64,000 nt of DNA from Cirrosporium novae-zelandiae (taxonomy: Eukaryota), in contig JAPETS010000010.1 of assembly GCA_026023565.1 (NCBI GenBank), positions 372,001 through 436,000 on the forward strand, in the 5' to 3' direction. This document shows positions 53,868 to 64,000 of the stretch, piece after piece. Both the position numbers and the translations under genes were made by a program. A model generated the notes under the pieces. That model did not search any database, had not been told where the DNA came from, and worked only from the letters and a program-made list of their open reading frames with translations. Numbering within the stretch: the stretch's first letter is position 1; the number at the start of each line of letters is the position of its first letter.

Positions 53868-55001
53868 TTATGCGAAAATTCTCAGAGGTTTCGAGAGTGT
53901 GTATCCGGGATCATTGAATCTTAACCCACGATCCATATTTGTGATTTCGTTGATTTCATCCGATGTCAGGTCGAAATGGTTAACTTCTAGGTTCTGCTTC
54001 AGACGGTCTGGGCTGTTGGATTTGGGGATCACGGCTACGCCCCTGCATTATATGGACACACATATGATATGATTAGTTGTTGCTAGCTTATGAAGGTGAA
54101 GGAAATGGATGGGGGGGGTTGTTTATTTATTTACCTCTGGGTAGCCCATCTCAAGAGGACTTGGGCGGGCGTGACACCATGCTTGTTTGCAATTTTTTGA
54201 ATCGTCATTGTTTCGAACAGTGGAGCGATTCCTTTGGCCCGCTCGGAAAATTGGCCTGGAAGTTCTAGGAAACTCTGGGGGCCGAAACTCGAGTAGGCGG
54301 TTACGGCGATCCCATTCTCCTGGGCCATGGATATCAAGGTTGGTTGCACGAGGTATGGGTGATGTTCAATCTGGAGGGCGGAGACCGGGTGCTTGCAGTA
54401 TGATTGGAGATCGTAGAGGGACTGGGCTTGGAAGTTGGATACCCCAATGGATTTGACAAGGCCGTCGTCCACCAGCGATTCAAGGACCTCCCAGGTCTCA
54501 CGGATAGGGACACGGTCGAGTTCGATGTTGCCTTTCTCATCCGAGGTGAAGCCGGGGTAGGGGACCACTTTTGGGTCGATATATTTCAATGCGACGGGAA
54601 AGTGAATCAGAAATAGGTCGATGTACCCAAGGCCCCAGGCGTCGATTTGCGCCCTCGTCATCTTAGTCGCATGTTCCTTGCGCTTGTAGTTGCACCACAG
54701 CTTGGTGGTTACGAATATGTCTTCGCGCTTCACCAGTCCTTCATCGATAGCCCGTTTGATGCCTTGGCCGGCCTCGGCTTCGTTCTGGTAGTCGTAGGCG
54801 CCGTCGAATAGTCGGTAGCCGACTTTAATAGCCTAAGGGGCATCAGAATGAATCCTCTTTTGATGATGAGTAGGTTGAGGTGAGGGCGGCATATACATTG
54901 TAAACTGTATCAGCGGCGCTCTCTTTGAGTACTTTCCAGAGCCCAAAGCCAACGAGGGGCATCTCCATGCCAGAAGCTAGCTTAATAGTTTCAGAAGCCA
55001 T
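53868..55001 (-). CDS. Aldo-keto reductase, xylose/aldose reductase (AKR2B-like)
   Basis: [66 protein letters not shown]. Introns 54896-54833 and 54134-54043. Confidence 0.93.
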
Positions 55002-55855
55002 TGTGTTCAGTTTTGTGGGGCTAAAGTTGGTATTTTGGTAGGCACTATATAAAATTAGGATGCTGAAGAGAGGAGATTTATCTTAGAGTGGAGAGTTTTT
55101 GTGATTGAAAGACACAACATAAGATAGAAAATAGAAGAGAGGAGAAGTTATAGAAAGCAGCAGAAACTGTAGGTTTCAATTCATAGCTGGGACCCCACAA
55201 AATACTTGTTAACCTGCATATTTATGGGTCGATGAGCGAATCAGCATGTTGCAGGGTAATAGGAGATGAAATACCCCGCTGGGACTTTGCTACAAAATGG
55301 ATAAATTAATCCTTGATAAATAATGATTGGGGAACCATCGGGTTAAATGGGAATCTGGTGGGGAAGACCTTTGGTGCCCTGGAAAATTCCTCTTGACCAC
55401 AAAACAGGTAATTTTAAGCGCTGTTCCTCTCTTGTAAGGAAAGAAAGTATTTTAGTAATTACATGTACATGTAATTAAAGAAAATAAATTTCTTAATCTT
55501 CAGTCTCGAGACTCATCTCTTTTCAGCTCTTTCAGCATCTTTTGTTATTCATCATTGGGGTCTCGGCCTATTATTCTACCTTGTCCATTTTGGGTTATCC
55601 GGAGACTTTGTCCAGAATTTCCTCAAGAGGCAGCCATAACCACCTTCCTTTGTCTCCCAAACGACCCAATTTGACAACAATTGCCCTTGTCATACATGAC
55701 CTTCAACAGCTCAGCAATCATGATTTCTCGTGGCATAAGAGAGCCACTCTCTCGCCCTGGCGTTTCTTTTTTCTTCCAATCGTCAAGAATATATTCGGAG
55801 AAATTGAGGTCTTCCTAGGTCAACTAGAAGAGCAAGAGATATAGGATATAGAACC

Positions 55856-58136
55856 ATGACTCCCTCGGCAGTCGTCGAAGATCATACGGCATACGGAAAC
55901 AATGCTGTTAAAGAGATATTGAGTAACGGTGTCACGAAACCGGTGGAGGAAACATCGAATACCGAAGACCATCACATTGTTCTCAAGACCTTCAGATTAT
56001 TGATTGCAGATTTATGTCAACAATTTAATGGAGGACATCCGGGGTAAGTAGCTCTTTTTGAGAGAACTGCGCAAAATGCTGATTGAATGTCCAGTGGGGC
56101 CATTGGTATGGCTGCCATAGGAGTCGCATTATGGAAATATGTAATGAGATATGCTCCACATACTCCCGGGTTCTTCAATAGAGATCGGTTTGTACTCTCC
56201 AATGGTAATCATCTAACCCACTTACAGAATTATGAAACCCAGGCTGACTTAATTAGGCCATACATGTCTCTTCCAGTATACATTCCTCCATCTCACAGGC
56301 TACAAAGCCATGACCTTCGACCAATTGAAATCATACCATTCAGCTCGTGAAGATGCGCTCTGCCCCGGCCATCCTGAAATTGAACACGAAGGTATCGAGG
56401 TCACAACTGGTCCCCTCGGTCAGGGAGTTGCGAATGCAGTCGGTTTGGCTATGGCCACAAAGAACCTTGCGGCTACATACAATCGTGATGGCTACAATGT
56501 AGTCTCTAACCACACATGGTGTATGGTTGGAGATGCTTGTCTGCAAGAAGGTGTAGGGTTAGAGGCAATATCACTTGCTGGACACTGGAAACTCGACAAC
56601 CTGACGATCATTTACGACAACAATCAGGTCACCTGTGACGGATCTGTCGATCTTACGAATACCGAAGACATAAATGCGAAAATGACTGCATGCGGTTTTG
56701 AAGTTATTGATGTGATGGATGGTTGCTATGATATTGAAGAACTGGTCAGCGTTCTTGCTCGATCTCGTTCACCTGGTCGATCGAAACCAACTTTTATTAA
56801 TGTCCGCACAATCATTGGGCTTGGAAGTGCTGTGGCTGGAGATGCTATTGCCCACGGTGCTGCCTTCGGTAAAGGAGATGTCGCGAAAATGAAGAAGGCA
56901 TATGGCTTCAATCCAGAAGAGCATTTTGTGATTGGAGACAAGGTCCGAAGATTCTTTGAGGGGCTCCCAGCTCGCGGCGAAAAACTTGTCTCGGAATGGA
57001 ATGACCTGGTTTCAGCGTACAGTAAAGCCAATCCAGAACTTGCCTCTGGATTCAAGATGCGGGTGGAAGGACGTCTCCCTGAGAACTGGGAAGATCTAAT
57101 TCCCAAGACCTTTCCCACCACATCCACCCCTTCTCGTAAATCCAACGGTCTCGTCTTCAACCCTATTGCCGCAAAAATCCCAACTTTCATGGTCGGAACT
57201 GCGGATCTTTCCCCTTCTGTCAATATGATCTACCCCAATAAAGTAGATTTCCAACACCCCGCTCTAAAAACCACATGTGGTATTACCGGTAACTATTCCG
57301 GTCGTTACATCCACTATGGCGTCCGCGAACATGTTATGGCCGCTGTCTCAAATGGACTTGCAGCTTTCAACCCTGGCACATTCATCCCGACTACCTCATC
57401 CTTCTTTATGTTCTATCTCTATGCTGCTCCGGCAGTCCGTATGGGCGCTCTCCAACACCTCCAGGTCATTCACGCTGCTACACATGACTCCATTGGCATG
57501 GGCGAAGATGGGCCTACACATCAGCCTATCGAACTCGCAACCCTTTACCGCGCAATGCCAAATTTATTCTACATCCGTCCGGCGGATAGTGAAGAAGCAG
57601 CCGGTGCATGGAAAGTTGCAATTAAAGCGAAGTCAACGCCCTCCATTATCTCCACCTCCCGACACAGCCTCCCTCAAACTGGTCTCACAAACCGCGACGG
57701 TGTAGCTAAAGGAGCATACGTCATCCGTGAAGCACCCGAAGGCGAAAAGGCAGATATCACCCTCCTCGGTGTGGGCGCCGAGTTCTGTATCGTAGCCGAT
57801 GTCGCCGATGTGCTCACCAAAAAGGGACTTAATGTCCGTCTCGTCAGTTTTCCCAGCTGGAAGTTGTTTGAGACACAGGATCGAGCATATAGGAGAAGTA
57901 TATTAAGGAGGAATGAGGGTATACCTGCAGTTGTGGTCGAACCGTATAGTAGTACGGGGTGGGAGAGATATGCGGATGCAGCTTTATGCATGAAGTCATT
58001 CGGAAAGTCCCTGCCCGGAAAGCTTGCATATGAATATTTCGGGTTTGGGAAGGATTCTATTGTGGAAAAGATAGAGAAGTATATGGAAAGTCTAAAGAAA
58101 GAGGAGAACGTCATGGGTGAGTTTGTTGAGCTATAA
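55856..58136 (+). CDS. Transketolase-family enzyme, dihydroxyacetone-synthase-like subgroup
   Basis: GGHPG|GAIGMAAIG, NRDRFVLSNGH, GHPE, TTGPLGQG, GDACLQEG...DNN (TPP motif), YGVREH, THDSIGMGEDGPTHQP. Introns 56044-56094 and 56205-56256. Confidence 0.93.
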
Positions 58137-58643
58137 GGGTGGCATGTATACTGTTTTGGATCGCCCAACTCTATTCTATTTATAGATAGGTGTTGTATAT
58201 ATTATAAATTTTGATATCTACATAGTGTTGTAGAATATAGATGTATTTGCATTTAAATGGGTTGGGAATTTTAAGGGATATATTCTTTGGGTTTCAATTT
58301 TAGGAAGGTCCGAGATGCTAGATAATGGGAGAGACCCTTACTGAAGTATAAGGGCCGCCTAGCTCTCATCTATGAATCATAGCCGAGTAAACTGCTAGCC
58401 TTTTAGCAATTTGAAAAATAGTTTTGTCTTATTTCATCTAAAGTAGATGCATGTCATGACTATTCCAAACTACATAAGGTATACTAATGGCCACTCTTTT
58501 TTTCTCTTCATACTTTTTATTTGCACATGATGCTCACCCATTTCATATTTCATCCTATCTCGTCAAGAATAAACAAATAATAATAAGAAATTCTTCGCAT
58601 CTCGTCTCCTATTTTTATCATCCAAACACATCCGAGACCCATC

Positions 58644-60408
58644 TTACTCAGGCTTCTTCTGTTGCTCCTCATGAGCTAGGTCCAGCCCCACGCTCACACT
58701 CTCCTGATGCGTCGTCGCAGCCACTTTCTCCGTATCCTCTGGGTCGATATTCTCACCCGAGATGACGGAGGACCGGCGCCGTTCCTGCTCCACCACAGCC
58801 TGGGCCTCCCTCACGTTCGTTTTAGTAGTAAATAGATAGTCAACTTCCTCGAGTGTGAGCTTGGTGGTCTCGGGATAATAGAAGTAGACCAGTGGCACAA
58901 AGGCGAGATTAGTGCACATGAATATGAGGTAGGCTTTCCATTCCAGTTTGTTGATGAGTGTGGGTGTTAGCATGACGATGACAAAGTTCCACAGCCAGTT
59001 TGAGGATATTCCGATTGCGGTTCCCTTTGCGCGGGCGTGCAAGGGGAGGATTTCAGGCACATAGACCCAGGGGATGCAGTTTACGCTTGCGCCGAAGAAG
59101 AGCATGTAGAGGAAGAAGAAGGCGACAGCGGCAGAGCTGGCGGGTTGGGTGGATAGGGAGAGCAGGATTGAAATCATCATCATGCAGATGGAGAGGAGCA
59201 GGCTGCCAATCATCATTGGTTTGCGCCGGCCGATTTGGTCGAGGAAGAGTGAGGGGACTAGCGAGCCTGTGGGAAACATGATCTGGATGACACCGCCGAT
59301 CAGGAGTGACATATTGCGTGTGAGGCCTACATTGTATTGGAGAACCGAGGGAACGTAATACACCACTAGGTTGATGCCACCTACTTGGTTCATGAATTGC
59401 ATGCCGTAGGCGAGGAGGACTCGTTTTCCAGTCTGCACGTCGTCACGCTTGAGGATCTGGCTCCACTTGTACTCGCCATGGAGATGCTCTAGCGTAATGG
59501 CTTCTTGAATGTCATTATATTCCTTTTGGATTTTCGGGTCCTCGGGTTCGCGATCATAGACCTCACTCAGGACCTTGATCGCCTCCGCGTTGCGGCGTTT
59601 TTGGCACAGCCAGCGAGGGCTTTCAGGAAGTCCGAATACTAGCACGATGACGACGAATGCGAAGATGACCTGGCAGGCAATGGGGACACGCCAGGAGATG
59701 GCCCCGTCGCTGCGCTGATTCATGCCGTAGTCGAACCAGTAAGCGATGACGATTCCAACGCCTACGAAGAGGGCTTCCGAGGAGACCAGCCGGCCCCGTT
59801 TGTGCGCTTCGCAGAGCTCGGATTGGTACATGGGCACTGTGGAGGTTTCGATGCCCGTGCCGAAGCCTGTGACAAAGCGCGCTACGAGGAGTTGGGCGCG
59901 AGAATAGGAGGTTGATTGGAGCGTGGCACCGATCTAGTTGGGGGGGGGATGTTTGTTAGATGATAGTTTTCTTTTCTCTCTCATTTTTGTTTATGTGGTT
60001 GTTGTCAATAATATAAGGAGTGAAATGGGGTGCATACAAGGATCCAACACATTGCGAACCACATGGCTTTCCTTCGACCAAGCTTATCGGCACAGAAGAA
60101 GGAAAAGATGGTACCAGTGAAACAGCCTAGGTTGTATATGCTAACGATGATACCTAGAACTCCATCGCCGGGGTGTTGAACGACATTTAAAAAGTTTCCA
60201 TTCCCAACTATTCCAGAAAATACTCCTTGGTCGTAGCCTAGGGGTAAATGATCAGTATTAAGGAGCTTGATAGAGGGGGATGAGAGAGATGTAGGTGTAC
60301 GAGGAGACAAGAAAATGTCATACCGAATAATATGAAAGCCATCTCGCAAGCAGTTGTAATAGCCAAGCGCAACGGCCGGCCACGACCAAACATCTTGACT
60401 TGCACCAT
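58644..60408 (-). CDS. MFS sugar porter (STL1-like sugar/polyol:H+ symporter)
   Basis: MVQVKMFGRGR...FILFGYDQG, DKLGRR, PMYQSE, WRVP, PESPRWL, QFMNQVGGIN, DQIGRRK, PWVYVPEI, YPET. Two introns near 60238-60323 and 59934-60037. Confidence 0.94.
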
Positions 60409-61551
60409 GATGAGAGTGATAGGTATGGAGTATCAAAACACACAAAAATGGATCCTTTTCTACAAAACAACAACAAGCAGGTCAAAAATCTTTCAATCAG
60501 CGCACAGATAGATGAATAAGAATTTATTTTCCGGGAAATTTGTCCTTTTCTATTTAATATGCGTGGTGGGGAGCTGTAGATATGAATTTTTTGATGGACA
60601 AGATGACAGAAAACATCACATCCTCGGCATTGATTCCTATGATCCTGAAGTAGAAATTATTACCCCCTTTAGAGTGCTTGCAAATTCCTCTTTGCACCCA
60701 TCATCAACCCCCCCCCCCTCCCCAGGTTTTCTCCATCTCTCCATGCGCGGAAATGGTGAGGCATGCAGGGGATTTTACCCGGTTGAGACTCGGTTACTGT
60801 AGGATGTCAGGATGATCAGACAAGGCCGTGGATGAACAAATTCGGGAGCTCGGTGCATTTGCCATGATCAATTGACGAATGATATACCTAGATACCGCCA
60901 AGTTTTTGGATGATCTCTGTTGGTCCGTGATTGTAAAAGCCGTTCAAATTCAAACGTTGGGATTTATAGGGTTTGTGGCTGATGATATCATTAAGATCTA
61001 AGGGGATCAGTAGAACGGTTGGGTAAATGGAGACGTAAGAGGGCGAAGGAATAGAAAGATATAAGCGTTTTATAGGGTGAAAGTTGGAAGTCTAGTTGGG
61101 CTATTATTGATAACAGTTCTCAATCCCTCAGTCCGGGGTATATGGGGGAAAATGCGGAGAGATTGGTCGTTATAGCGTGGTGAAGATCAATTGGAACAAC
61201 ACCTTACCCAGGTATCCAGACGCTCGGATTATTTATCACCGAGCGTGTAAAATTTCCTCTTTGGGATCGAGGGGCAATACGAGTACCTTTTCGGCCTTCA
61301 CTGCCCGAATCACCCCCTCCATTCGCCGAAATACCGAGACAACCCCTTGAACTAAGAAGTATTGAGCTTGTGGGGTAATTATAACCCAATTGCCTACCTG
61401 CACCTGTTCATCTATCCATCGCTTTTCACGTCAACTACTTTAGCACTCACTGAGGTATTTCATTTCAGGTAATCCGCTCACTCCTTTAATACCCTCGAAT
61501 CACAAAAGATATCCCCTTTGTTGTTCTTTCCCAACCTCGGAGACCGGCAAA

Positions 61552-62850
61552 ATGGGTGTCAACATTGTCAATAGCAGTCCTTCGACAGGAACCATCAGGA
61601 ATGAACTTCCCACCGGTACTTTCCATCCACCAAAATCAAATCCAGCCCTCTATACAACGGAGGACCACCGGATTTATCTCGCTGAATCGACACCATTGAA
61701 TCCAGGACCAGAAGATTGTGTTGTTCACGTTAAAGCCAATGGAATTTGTGGGTACGTCCAATCCTAAACCAGTGAAAATTGATCCCGAGAGCATTCTAAC
61801 TTTCACGCAGGTCAGATCTTCATTTCTGGAAAAAGGGTGAGATTGGTTATCTCCATGTTGAATCAGATTATATTTTAGGTCATGAAGGAGCCGGTGTAAT
61901 TTTATGGGTTGGAGACGCTGTGAAAACCCTTCGAGTTGGCGATCGAGTAGCCATTGAACCTGGCATACCTTGCGGTAATTGCTATCAATGCAGTACTGGC
62001 AAATATAATCTCTGTGCAAATGTGAGATTTACTGGCGCACCACCACACAATGGATCAATAAGACGATATCACGTCCATCCCGCCAAATATCTCCACAAGA
62101 TTCCTGCAAATTTGTCCTTTTCTGACGGAGCTCTCCTCGAGCCACTGAGCGTTGTTCTTCATGGATTTGAACGTAGCCCTACCCGGGCTGGCCAGTCTGT
62201 TCTAATCTGTGGTGCAGGTCCCATTGGCTTAATTGCATTGGCAGTTGCAAAATCCAGTGGAGCCTTTCCAATTATTATAACCGACCTGGACACAGGGAGG
62301 CTGGAGTTTGCAAAGAAGTTCGTGCCAGGATGTATCACATTTAAGATTTCGCCAAAAGATATTCCTGAGTCAACCGGAACTAAGATTCAAGAAGTGTTCA
62401 TGAAGATGGGTGCCGCTCCACCAGCTGTCGTATATGAATGTACAGGCGTGGAAAGTAGTATTGTGACTGCTGCGTTTTCGACACGTAGAGGCGGCGAAGT
62501 AATGGTGATAGGAGTTGGCCGACCAGTTGTGAATAACATCCCCTTTATGCATATTTCAATGGCAGAGGTATCTAGTTGTCCCTACAATCCCCGCACATAG
62601 GACTTTCATGACTTATTATATTCTCCAGATTGACCTCAAATTCATAAATCGATATCATCATTCCTGGCCTTACGCAATTCGTTTCGTTCAATCCGGATAT
62701 ATCAATTTGAAACCACTAGTCACGCATACTTTTCGGTTAGAAGAAGCTGAAGCGGCAATGGAAACTGCTGCAGATCGTTCTAAGGGCTCCGTCAAGATCC
62801 ATATTATCGATTCGGATGAAGATCGTCCACAAGAACTATCTCACTTGTGA
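61552..62850 (+). CDS. Zn-dependent polyol dehydrogenase (L-arabinitol 4-dehydrogenase/sorbitol dehydrogenase-like)
   Basis: GICG|SDLHFW, LGHEGAG, CGNCYQCSTGKYNLC structural Zn site, EPLSV, GAGPIG, acidic TDLD (NAD+ preference). Introns 61752-61810 and ~62568-62628. Confidence 0.93.
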
Positions 62851-63547
62851 AGTAGTTGGTACTTATGTTGTTCAAGAGCAGCTTTGTCAGTCCAAAGCAC
62901 CTTTTCCCATCGTGCTATAAGAACGTAACAGCCTTTGTAGTCTAGTTGTATGTTGATCTGCATGATAATTCCTCATAACCTCCCTGGGAAGCAGTTGATA
63001 AAACCCAATGTCCTGTGACAACAGGATTGCATACCAACCGCGTATAAATCCAGTATTTGTAAAATCAAAGCAGATATTATACCTCCTAGAAAAGCTAGAA
63101 GAGGGTAGGAGATAGTATTTCTCCCTAATCGCTTATTACTGTTTATATAGGAATTGTTAGGCGCCTTATAAAAAATTTGAGTTCTTGCACAAATGAATGG
63201 TTTTACTAGGTTTGGTTACAATACCTAGGTACCTGGTTTCATTAATAAGATGTATGATCCTGCCGGCAGTAGCTACCCGAGAAAACCCGGATACAGTCTT
63301 CCCGGAATTCTTCTATTCACCTAGGCAGTCAGACAATTTAGGGCCTTTCTTTTCTTTTTGAGAATTTAGAATTAAATACTGACTATCGTTCAAGGAACTA
63401 GGCATTTCTCTTGTTGCAGGAACTCGACTGAACTTTTGATTAATACCGGCCAGCTTTGTGATATGAGATATCACCCCTTTCGGTTCCTATAACTCATTGC
63501 CTTGCCGAGCTTTTTACTTCCTTAGCTACCCTTGCGATTCTATCAAC

Positions 63548-64000
63548 ATGAGTTCCAAAAGGAAGGCAGACGATTCCAATGATGAGAAATTCCTAGACCT
63601 TCAAACCCGAGTCTCCGAGCTACAGAAGCAGATGCTTGAAATGAGACAAGAGATGCAAGATTTCAAGCAAGACACATCTCAGCGATTAGCCGAGATTGAG
63701 CGGAACGTGAATGCCACTCAACAAACCCATGATTTAGAACTACAACTTCAAAGATCAATGAGCAAGAATGTTTATGAGCTTCGGGATATGATGAATTCGC
63801 TTGTCAGTGGTAGTTGGGTTTCAACGTTCAAGCGCCAGCGAGTTGAGGACGATGAGCCAGCTGCAAGTTTAACTACATCATCTGGCACGATCCGCAATCG
63901 ACAGTCATTCGGGCGAAGATCTCCCCCTCCTAACCCTCCCCCGGCTACTCGGTCTCAGCCCCCTGTTCCTGGCAGTAGTATAGTTTCCCGGCGGAATTCC
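63548..64000 (+). CDS. Hypothetical protein (N-terminal coiled coil then P/S-rich), runs off window
   Basis: ATG 63548 opens a stop-free frame to the window end: MSSKRKADDSNDEKFLDLQTRVSELQKQMLEMRQEMQDF...PPPNPPPATRSQPP. Missing from the supplied ORF track because it has no stop in the window. Confidence 0.6.
   Translation, partial: MSSKRKADDSNDEKFLDLQTRVSELQKQMLEMRQEMQDFKQDTSQRLAEIERNVNATQQTHDLELQLQRSMSKNVYELRDMMNSLVSGSWVSTFKRQRVEDDEPAASLTTSSGTIRNRQSFGRRSPPPNPPPATRSQPPVPGSSIVSRRNS

What the first reader, a model, noticed from the sequence alone, without database searches (positions are those of the whole stretch)
53868..62850. Four-gene fungal sugar/polyol cluster: aldose reductase, DHAS-like transketolase, sugar porter and polyol dehydrogenase, with no kinase
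Seen: four adjacent, intact genes arranged as two divergent pairs (AKR<- ->TKL; porter<- ->dehydrogenase), with nothing unrelated between them. Known: fungal pentose catabolism runs aldose -> polyol (AKR) -> ketose (MDR dehydrogenase) -> kinase, and those genes are usually unlinked. Bacterial D-apiose catabolism passes through apulose and a transketolase step that releases a dihydroxyacetone unit. Inference: uptake, reduction and re-oxidation here would give a ketose that the dedicated transketolase could cleave directly. One candidate is D-apiose -> apiitol -> apulose -> dihydroxyacetone + C2 transfer. Another is erythrose/threose -> tetritol -> erythrulose as a transketolase donor. Either would be an uncharacterised fungal route for a rare or branched sugar. 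The substrate cannot be read from sequence.
Basis: partly seen in the sequence, partly recalled or inferred. Interest (0 to 1): 0.8.

Follow-up and report, generated by a model that had tools for sequence, protein, structure and literature searches.

The report
Fungal rare-sugar cluster, candidate apiose pathway
Three fungal sugar enzymes of unknown job sit together with a transporter here and recur as neighbours in many other fungi, which points to an undescribed route for eating an uncommon sugar, possibly the branched plant sugar apiose.

Summary
The four genes are real, intact and adjacent. Each enzyme is an 'orphan' paralogue already named in the literature: the reductase is in the PRD1 clade, the dehydrogenase in the LadC family, and the transketolase is TktC (AN8551). 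The genome has its canonical xylose reductase, LadA and TktA elsewhere. tktC and ladC are neighbours in A. nidulans, A. niger, P. subrubescens and T. reesei. Two or three of the enzymes lie within 1-7 accessions in 9 of 9 genomes pre-selected for a shared contig. A LadC-type gene flanks TktC in 17 of 50 metagenome loci. Elsewhere the cluster often adds two Zn2Cys6 factors and a different porter, and once a dihydroxyacetone kinase; the reductase is often unlinked. Published A. niger mutants rule out a pentose role, and eight common sugars do not induce tktC. Best reading: uptake, reduction, re-oxidation and transketolase cleavage of a rare aldose. D-apiose (to apiitol, apulose, then dihydroxyacetone plus xylulose-5-P) is the leading candidate (~0.45), inferred and not shown. 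A 2026 preprint reports a fungus consuming apiose without the known bacterial enzymes; its unseen proteomics tables test this directly. My searches found no paper describing the cluster.

The parts
53868..55001 (-). Aldo-keto reductase of the PRD1 clade (XyrA paralogue); exons 55001-54897, 54832-54135, 54042-53868; 325 aa
   Evidence: model; PF00248. 66% to LIPSTDRAFT_76630 (P0321), which is listed in the PRD1 clade in the text of PMC8601170 Fig. S1. Groups with it, apart from the genome's other XR (93 SH-aLRT, quick tree). Catalytic D/Y/K/H, IPKS and N310 equivalents kept.
55002..55855 (.). Shared divergent upstream region of AKR and TKL (854 bp)
   Evidence: Read from the sequence. Consensus CreA-like sites are present (motif recalled, not tested against chance).
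55856..58136 (+). TktC / DHAS-like transketolase; exons 55856-56043, 56095-56204, 56257-58136; 725 aa
   Evidence: PF00456/02779/22613. 72% to A. nidulans AN8551 (P0024), 39-53% to the genome's canonical TktA. All catalytic and phosphate-binding residues kept; yeast I191 is Cys in the window and in 119 of 119 relatives.
58644..60408 (-). MFS sugar porter; exons 60408-60324, 60237-60038, 59933-58644; 524 aa; not orthologous to the porter of other clusters
   Evidence: TIGR00879 above cut-off. 22-31% to porters in related loci. The genome's best match to the other clusters' porter is 37%.
60409..61551 (.). Shared divergent upstream region of porter and dehydrogenase (1143 bp)
   Evidence: Read from the sequence.
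61552..62850 (+). Zn-dependent polyol dehydrogenase of the LadC family; exons 61552-61751, 61811-62567, 62629-62850; 392 aa
   Evidence: best PDB hit N. crassa LAD 3m6i. The genome's true LadA is elsewhere (C57, 516 bits over 311 aa against 347 bits over 351 aa for this protein). Family pocket signature G120, T121->A/V/I, F297->N.

Best explanation
A dedicated catabolic module for an uncommon aldose, most likely D-apiose. Proposed steps: the porter imports the sugar; the NADPH reductase (PRD1 type) makes apiitol; the NAD+ LadC-type dehydrogenase oxidises C2 to apulose; TktC cleaves apulose, releasing dihydroxyacetone and moving the C2 unit to glyceraldehyde-3-P to give xylulose-5-P; an unlinked DHA kinase makes DHAP. 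A variant has a DAK-type kinase phosphorylating apulose first, as in bacteria. SHOWN here: intact genes, paralogue status, conserved linkage, conserved altered pockets. SHOWN in papers: no pentose role for LadC in A. niger; a fungus consumes apiose. INFERRED: every reaction and the substrate. That the module is a functional unit for some non-canonical sugar or polyol I put at ~0.9; that it is apiose, ~0.45.
For: Linkage: 9 of 9 genomes looked up have two or three of the enzymes within 1-7 accessions (pairs were pre-selected for a shared contig length, so this is not a random sample). Also Verruconis and A. melleus locus tags, and tktC/ladC consecutive in 4 model fungi (PMC9781776 Table S2). 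MDR is within the locus in 17 of 50 metagenome loci, or 10 of 33 after collapsing at 90% DNA identity. Co-presence in 22 genomes: all 13 with TktC have LadC, and all 6 lacking LadC lack TktC (PMC6231085 suppl.; species are not independent). Not common sugars: A. niger tktC reads 20-36 on all 8 sugars; deleting NRRL3_0896 in lxrA or lxrA lxrB mutants changed nothing on pentoses, and ladA xdhA sdhA or xkiA mutants cannot grow though ladC and tktC were not deleted (PMC8601170); PRD1 kcat/Km is 0.46-0.68 against 8-178 for xylose reductases (PMC8020424 Table 2). Distinct conserved pockets: LadC G120 in 119 of 119, T121 lost in 119 of 119, F297->N in 82 of the 89 rows that cover it (position 297 affects specificity, PMC2731777); TktC I191->C in 119 of 119. 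A DHA kinase is head-to-head with TktC in 1 of 50 loci (L046). F. oxysporum depletes D-apiose with no known bacterial apiose enzyme identified (bioRxiv 10.64898/2026.03.13.711244). Bacteria have a transketolase route for apiose (PMC13753588). Stereochemistry (own knowledge): D-apiitol has the C2 configuration that LAD/SDH enzymes oxidise, and apulose keeps the C3-OH that transketolase cleavage needs.
Against: No enzyme assay, knockout or induction on apiose was seen. On sugar beet pulp, which holds RG-II, A. niger tktC stays at 7-11 and ladC at 45-90 FPKM with no late rise (PMC8961234 suppl.); apiose is a minor component there. No GH140 apiosidase was found in this genome (incomplete genomes caveat) or among 144 neighbour ORFs scanned from 22 loci. 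The reductase is unlinked in 5 of 5 genomes where allowed a comparison, and is present in only 3 of 50 loci. C. pulveracea TKL and MDR tags are 44 apart. Of 17 non-redundant loci with at least 2.5 kb upstream, 10 lack the MDR. A. niger ladC varies 7-fold across sugars while tktC is flat, which is weak co-regulation. Cys at 191 may be a general DHAS-family trait (recalled). The window's reductase differs from its relatives at otherwise near-invariant positions (N84->C, H87->K, W132->F). The window's MDR sits in a sister subclade to the TktC-adjacent LadC proteins.
Confidence: 0.45

Rival explanations
1. Same four-step logic, but for another rare aldose or polyol whose ketose fits transketolase (for example L-idose/L-iditol to L-sorbose, or an unrecognised branched or modified sugar).
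For: All the linkage, paralogy, pocket and non-induction evidence supports a rare substrate without naming it. Porters differ between clusters.
Against: No second kinase, isomerase or aldehyde-handling gene recurs among the neighbours. Straight-chain ketoses would more simply be phosphorylated (inference).
Confidence: 0.22
2. Tetritol route: L-threose/L-threitol (or erythritol) to erythrulose, which TktC uses as a free donor, releasing glycolaldehyde.
For: L-erythrulose is a known transketolase donor (recalled). A. niger tktC and ladC levels correlate negatively with intracellular threitol and erythritol (r -0.81 to -0.88).
Against: The same genes also correlate negatively with mannitol, so this looks like a carbon-status effect. 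By the family's stereo rule erythritol gives D-erythrulose, which is not a transketolase donor (own reasoning). No glycolaldehyde-handling gene recurs. The genome has a separate DAK + Zn2Cys6 pair that could serve erythritol (function inferred).
Confidence: 0.14
3. TktC is a true formaldehyde-fixing dihydroxyacetone synthase, as annotated, and the neighbours serve a methylated substrate or are loosely associated.
For: Database names and EC 2.2.1.3 assignment. Phosphate site intact. DAK neighbour in L046. A TktC subclade lacks the MDR neighbour.
Against: No alcohol oxidase or demethylase recurs among the scanned neighbours. It does not explain the conserved linkage and co-loss with LadC. In the text I read the EC assignment comes with no assay.
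Confidence: 0.1
4. An auxiliary or kinase-bypass route for D-xylose or L-arabinose.
For: PRD1 is reported to take part in pentose catabolism in P. oryzae and reduces both pentoses. A. niger ladC is 4-fold higher on L-arabinose than on glucose.
Against: xkiA and ladA xdhA sdhA mutants of A. niger cannot grow on pentoses, and ladC deletion added no phenotype. tktC and ladC show no marked change in the single XlnR or AraR deletion strains. PRD1 efficiency on xylose is about 20-400 fold below that of xylose reductases.
Confidence: 0.06

Closest known systems
Fungal oxidoreductive pentose catabolic pathway (XyrA/LarA, LadA, LxrA, XdhA, XkiA)
   Same: AKR reduction then MDR oxidation by homologous enzymes.
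   Different: All three enzymes are paralogues with altered pockets, the genes are clustered, and a transketolase stands where the kinase would be. A. niger mutants show LadC and TktC do not substitute in this pathway.
tktC-ladC pair: A. nidulans AN8551/AN8552, A. niger NRRL3_00895/00896, T. reesei TrD0970W/TrD0969C
   Same: Orthologous transketolase (72% to AN8551) and same-family dehydrogenase, adjacent.
   Different: Function unassigned in the papers read. The window adds the PRD1-type reductase and its own porter, and lacks the two Zn2Cys6 genes. Its MDR falls in a sister subclade.
PRD1 pentose reductase of Pyricularia oryzae (MGG_01404)
   Same: Same clade, via Lipst1|76630.
   Different: Described as a pentose reductase with low efficiency. 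I did not see its clustering reported, and I did not check its neighbours in P. oryzae.
Bacterial D-apiose transketolase route (Carter et al. 2018; seen only as cited in PMC13753588, details recalled)
   Same: Proposed apulose intermediate and transketolase release of a triose.
   Different: Bacteria use an isomerase, an apulose kinase and a split transketolase on apulose-4-P (recalled). Here a reductase/dehydrogenase pair and a single-chain DHAS-like enzyme would do it, possibly without prior phosphorylation.
Methylotrophic-yeast dihydroxyacetone synthase (EC 2.2.1.3)
   Same: Same subfamily by database naming.
   Different: No methanol-pathway neighbours.

Membership tests
TktC / DHAS-like transketolase | Closer to AN8551-type proteins than to canonical TktA | tested here: met
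   72% against 39-53%; long branch to TktA in a quick tree
TktC / DHAS-like transketolase | ThDP, catalytic and phosphate-binding residues (yeast H30, H69, H103, D157, N187, H263, R359, S386, E418, H469, D477, H481, R528; roles recalled) | tested here: met
Dihydroxyacetone synthase EC 2.2.1.3 | Uses formaldehyde as acceptor | not testable with these tools
   Annotation only
LadA L-arabitol 4-dehydrogenase | M70 and Y318 pocket residues; being the genome's best LAD match | tested here: not met
   Leu and Asn at these sites; the true LadA is on C57
XdhA/SdhA xylitol or sorbitol dehydrogenase | F59 and F297 | tested here: not met
   an XDH-type gene with both Phe lies on C57 (L012)
LadC | Shares signature and clade with TktC-adjacent LadA paralogues | tested here: inconclusive
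   Signature shared, 57% to A. melleus TKL-adjacent P0223, but in a sister subclade with LadA unresolved; AN8552 itself was not in hand
PRD1 clade of aldose reductases | Groups with a published PRD1-clade member, apart from XyrA | tested here: met
   (93 SH-aLRT, quick tree); MGG_01404 itself not compared
Canonical XyrA | Sole or best XR orthologue in the genome | tested here: not met
   A second XR lies on C76 (49% to this one)
Bacterial apiose transketolase route | Apiose isomerase and apulose kinase in the cluster (recalled) | tested here: not met
   Neither is in the block or its flanks
Apiose catabolic pathway (any) | Activity on, or induction by, apiose, apiitol or apulose | not testable with these tools
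   No such data seen; the preprint's supplements were not seen

The most novel reading that the evidence does not exclude
PRD1, LadC and TktC form the missing eukaryotic D-apiose pathway: an oxidoreductive conversion of apiose to apulose, then kinase-free cleavage of a free branched ketose by a DHAS-like transketolase. It would be widespread in filamentous ascomycetes, with the reductase-dehydrogenase pair also adjacent in a Lipomycetaceae yeast, and the ancestral role of the DHAS subfamily would then be branched-sugar cleavage rather than formaldehyde fixation.
Probability: 0.35. Interest if true: 0.88.

Novelty: new variant of a known kind. Interest (0 to 1): 0.7.

Why it matters
It ties three long-standing orphan enzymes (LadC, described as of unknown function in 2009; PRD1; TktC, assigned formaldehyde fixation in metabolic models of fungi not known as methylotrophs) into one testable unit. 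It also supplies a concrete candidate for how fungi consume apiose, which a 2026 preprint leaves open. If right, it adds a branched-sugar pathway to fungal metabolic models, a transketolase that handles a ketone leaving group, and a cue for two uncharacterised Zn2Cys6 factors. Orthologues exist in A. nidulans, A. niger and T. reesei, so the test is cheap.

Tried and rejected
Ten literature searches found no paper in the held library describing this cluster or a fungal apiose pathway; two searches were swamped by unrelated uses of the terms, and most subscription papers are not held. Carter 2018 and Klaubauf 2013 are not held; one supplement search timed out. No RNA holder was listed for the window, which is no evidence either way. 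No earlier scan findings came up by sequence or words. The cluster-type Zn2Cys6 factor has a 43% match on C76, beside an amidohydrolase, so orthology is unclear. Two fused database models (P0368, P0412) revealed no new pathway partner. One-off neighbours (SDR in L019, UDP-glucose epimerase in L056, Sde182-like in L060) did not point to a substrate. The Atlas gave only generic porter names. A presence pattern shared with SDR NRRL3_09880 (21 of 22 genomes) was noted but not pursued, as chance matches are likely among some 270 rows. All trees are quick trees without bootstrap. I rejected 'sole canonical copies' and 'pentose bypass' for the reasons given. No structure or complex prediction was run, as neither could name the substrate.
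Full report
Observation. The block holds four intact genes with GT-AG introns: an aldo-keto reductase (minus, 55001-53868, 325 aa), a transketolase (plus, 55856-58136, 725 aa), a sugar porter (minus, 60408-58644, 524 aa) and a Zn-MDR dehydrogenase (plus, 61552-62850, 392 aa). Pfam and NCBIfam agree. The flanks are a Ser/Thr protein kinase and a GCR1_C ORF; there is no sugar kinase.

None is the housekeeping copy. The genome carries a canonical transketolase on C56 (39-53% to this one), another xylose reductase on C76 (49%), a true LadA on C57 (516 bits to N. crassa LAD) and an XDH-type gene. Two DAK-family kinase genes lie on C52 and C1.

Each enzyme is a named orphan. The transketolase is 72% identical to A. 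nidulans AN8551, listed with A. niger tktC in PMC9781776 Table S2. AN8552 is ladC (table passage in PMC4021826). PMC2731777 (passages) says LadC has no reported function and probably differs from LadA. The reductase is 66% identical to LIPSTDRAFT_76630, which the text of Fig. S1 of PMC8601170 lists in the PRD1 clade, and a quick tree groups the two apart from the genome's other XR. The window's dehydrogenase shares the LadC pocket signature but falls in a sister subclade to the TktC-adjacent proteins, so I call it LadC family rather than a strict orthologue.

Linkage elsewhere. I looked up accession numbers for pairs that shared a contig length in the hit lists, which is a biased sample. In 9 of 9 such genomes two or three of the enzymes lie within 1-7 accessions: for example Coniochaeta ligniaria AKR OIW31509, MDR OIW31513, TKL OIW31514; Pleomassaria MDR KAF2711833, TKL ...834, AKR ...838; the yeast Dipodascopsis AKR KAK9452535, MDR ...536. 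Verruconis PV09_04425/04426 and A. melleus N8T08_007753/007754 add two more. tktC and ladC are consecutive in A. nidulans, A. niger, P. subrubescens and T. reesei. An unselected scan of metagenome contigs with a TktC motif gave 50 loci: MDR in 17, AKR in 3, a conserved Zn2Cys6-type regulator in 12, an orthologous porter unlike the window's in 9, and a DHA kinase in 1. Collapsed at 90% DNA identity there are 33 groups, 10 with MDR; of 17 groups with at least 2.5 kb upstream, 7 have it and 10 do not. Against tight linkage: the reductase is unlinked in A. carbonarius, P. subrubescens, P. herquei, T. verruculosus and Coniosporium apollinis, and C. pulveracea TKL and MDR tags are 44 apart. In 22 genomes tabulated by PMC6231085 (supplement), all 13 with TktC have LadC and all 6 without LadC lack TktC; 3 have LadC only. 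So the core is TktC + LadC, often with regulators; reductase and porter are exchangeable. The window is the most compact form I saw.

What the substrate is not. In A. niger, tktC reads 20-36 on all eight sugars tested and ladC 63-442, highest on galacturonate, rhamnose and arabinose (PMC9781776 Table S4). Deleting NRRL3_0896 in lxrA or lxrA lxrB mutants changed nothing on pentoses, while xkiA and ladA xdhA sdhA mutants cannot grow on them (PMC8601170 passages). On sugar beet pulp neither gene is induced or changes markedly in single XlnR, AraR, ClrB, GaaR or RhaR deletions (PMC8961234 Data S2, two rows). PRD1 has kcat/Km 0.46 and 0.68 on xylose and arabinose against 8-178 for xylose reductases (PMC8020424 section 3.3).

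Pockets. Against human SDH numbering, 119 relatives of the dehydrogenase have G120 (119), V/A/I for T121 (119) and N for F297 (82 of 89 covered; 30 rows did not reach it), whereas the genome's LadA has S/T/Y and its XDH A/T/F. Position 297 affects specificity. The transketolase keeps all catalytic and phosphate residues, and has Cys for yeast I191 in 119 of 119 relatives. These changes show a conserved, different substrate; reading them as room for a hydroxymethyl branch is my inference. The window's reductase departs from its relatives at three near-invariant positions, which I cannot explain.

Mechanism. Reduction then oxidation at C2 gives a ketose, and a linked transketolase implies that ketose is its donor. 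By my own stereochemical reasoning, LAD/SDH-type enzymes oxidise the C2 configuration found in D-apiitol, xylitol and L-threitol, and erythritol would give D-erythrulose, which transketolase does not use. Xylose is excluded by the mutants. L-threose is scarce and would release glycolaldehyde, with no partner gene for it. Apiose is a widely distributed plant sugar, would release dihydroxyacetone for an ordinary DAK, and has a bacterial transketolase route (PMC13753588 passages; Carter 2018 not held, details recalled). A 2026 preprint (10.64898/2026.03.13.711244; section 14 and passages read) reports that F. oxysporum depletes D-apiose and that none of the known bacterial enzymes appear in its proteome. 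Fusarium species carry the PRD1-type reductase; I did not check TktC there. Its supplementary proteomic tables, unseen, bear directly on this claim. Against apiose: no induction on beet pulp, no GH140 found in this genome, and no direct assay. Whether a kinase acts before cleavage is open.

Comparison and verdict. It works like the fungal oxidoreductive pentose pathway in its first half and, on my reading, like the bacterial apiose transketolase route in its second, and fails membership of both as defined. Ten searches found no description of the cluster in the held library; subscription papers were mostly outside it. Real conserved module about 0.9; apiose about 0.45; another rare sugar 0.22; tetritol 0.14; formaldehyde fixation 0.10; pentose bypass 0.06. 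New variant of a known kind; interest 0.7.

Noticed in passing
window 56257-56298 against P0001: The 99%-identical database model P0001 lacks 14 residues at the start of exon 3, including the catalytic His69 equivalent; the splice model keeps them, so the database model looks mis-spliced.
   Followed up: partly
G000:C1:935100-940600 (L079, L080): A second DAK-family kinase head-to-head with a Zn2Cys6 factor, without RpiB or TPI seen nearby; possibly a reduced erythritol or triose module.
   Followed up: partly
window 63467-64000 and L072:968-1900: GCR1_C-domain ORF right of the cluster, followed by Hsp90-like ORFs; link to the cluster not tested.
   Followed up: partly
L017, L020, L037, L052, L060, L063: A conserved pair of related Zn2Cys6/Fungal_trans_2 genes accompanies the cluster in other fungi and is absent from the window; candidate regulators.
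   Followed up: partly
L019/L043: In one TktC subclade an SDR, a regulator and two porters flank the transketolase instead of LadC; possible replacement or a different substrate.
   Followed up: partly
G000 C35 and C47: Identical hits at identical or 2-base-offset coordinates on two contigs suggest a duplicated contig in the assembly.
   Followed up: no
window 1-53100: The rest of the window reads as ordinary fungal genes: arginase family, DUF1349, PAP2, isochorismatase, FAD/NAD reductase, homeobox, acyltransferase, kinesin and protein kinase, plus capping-enzyme-like and DNA-ligase-like ORFs recognised by eye.
   Followed up: no
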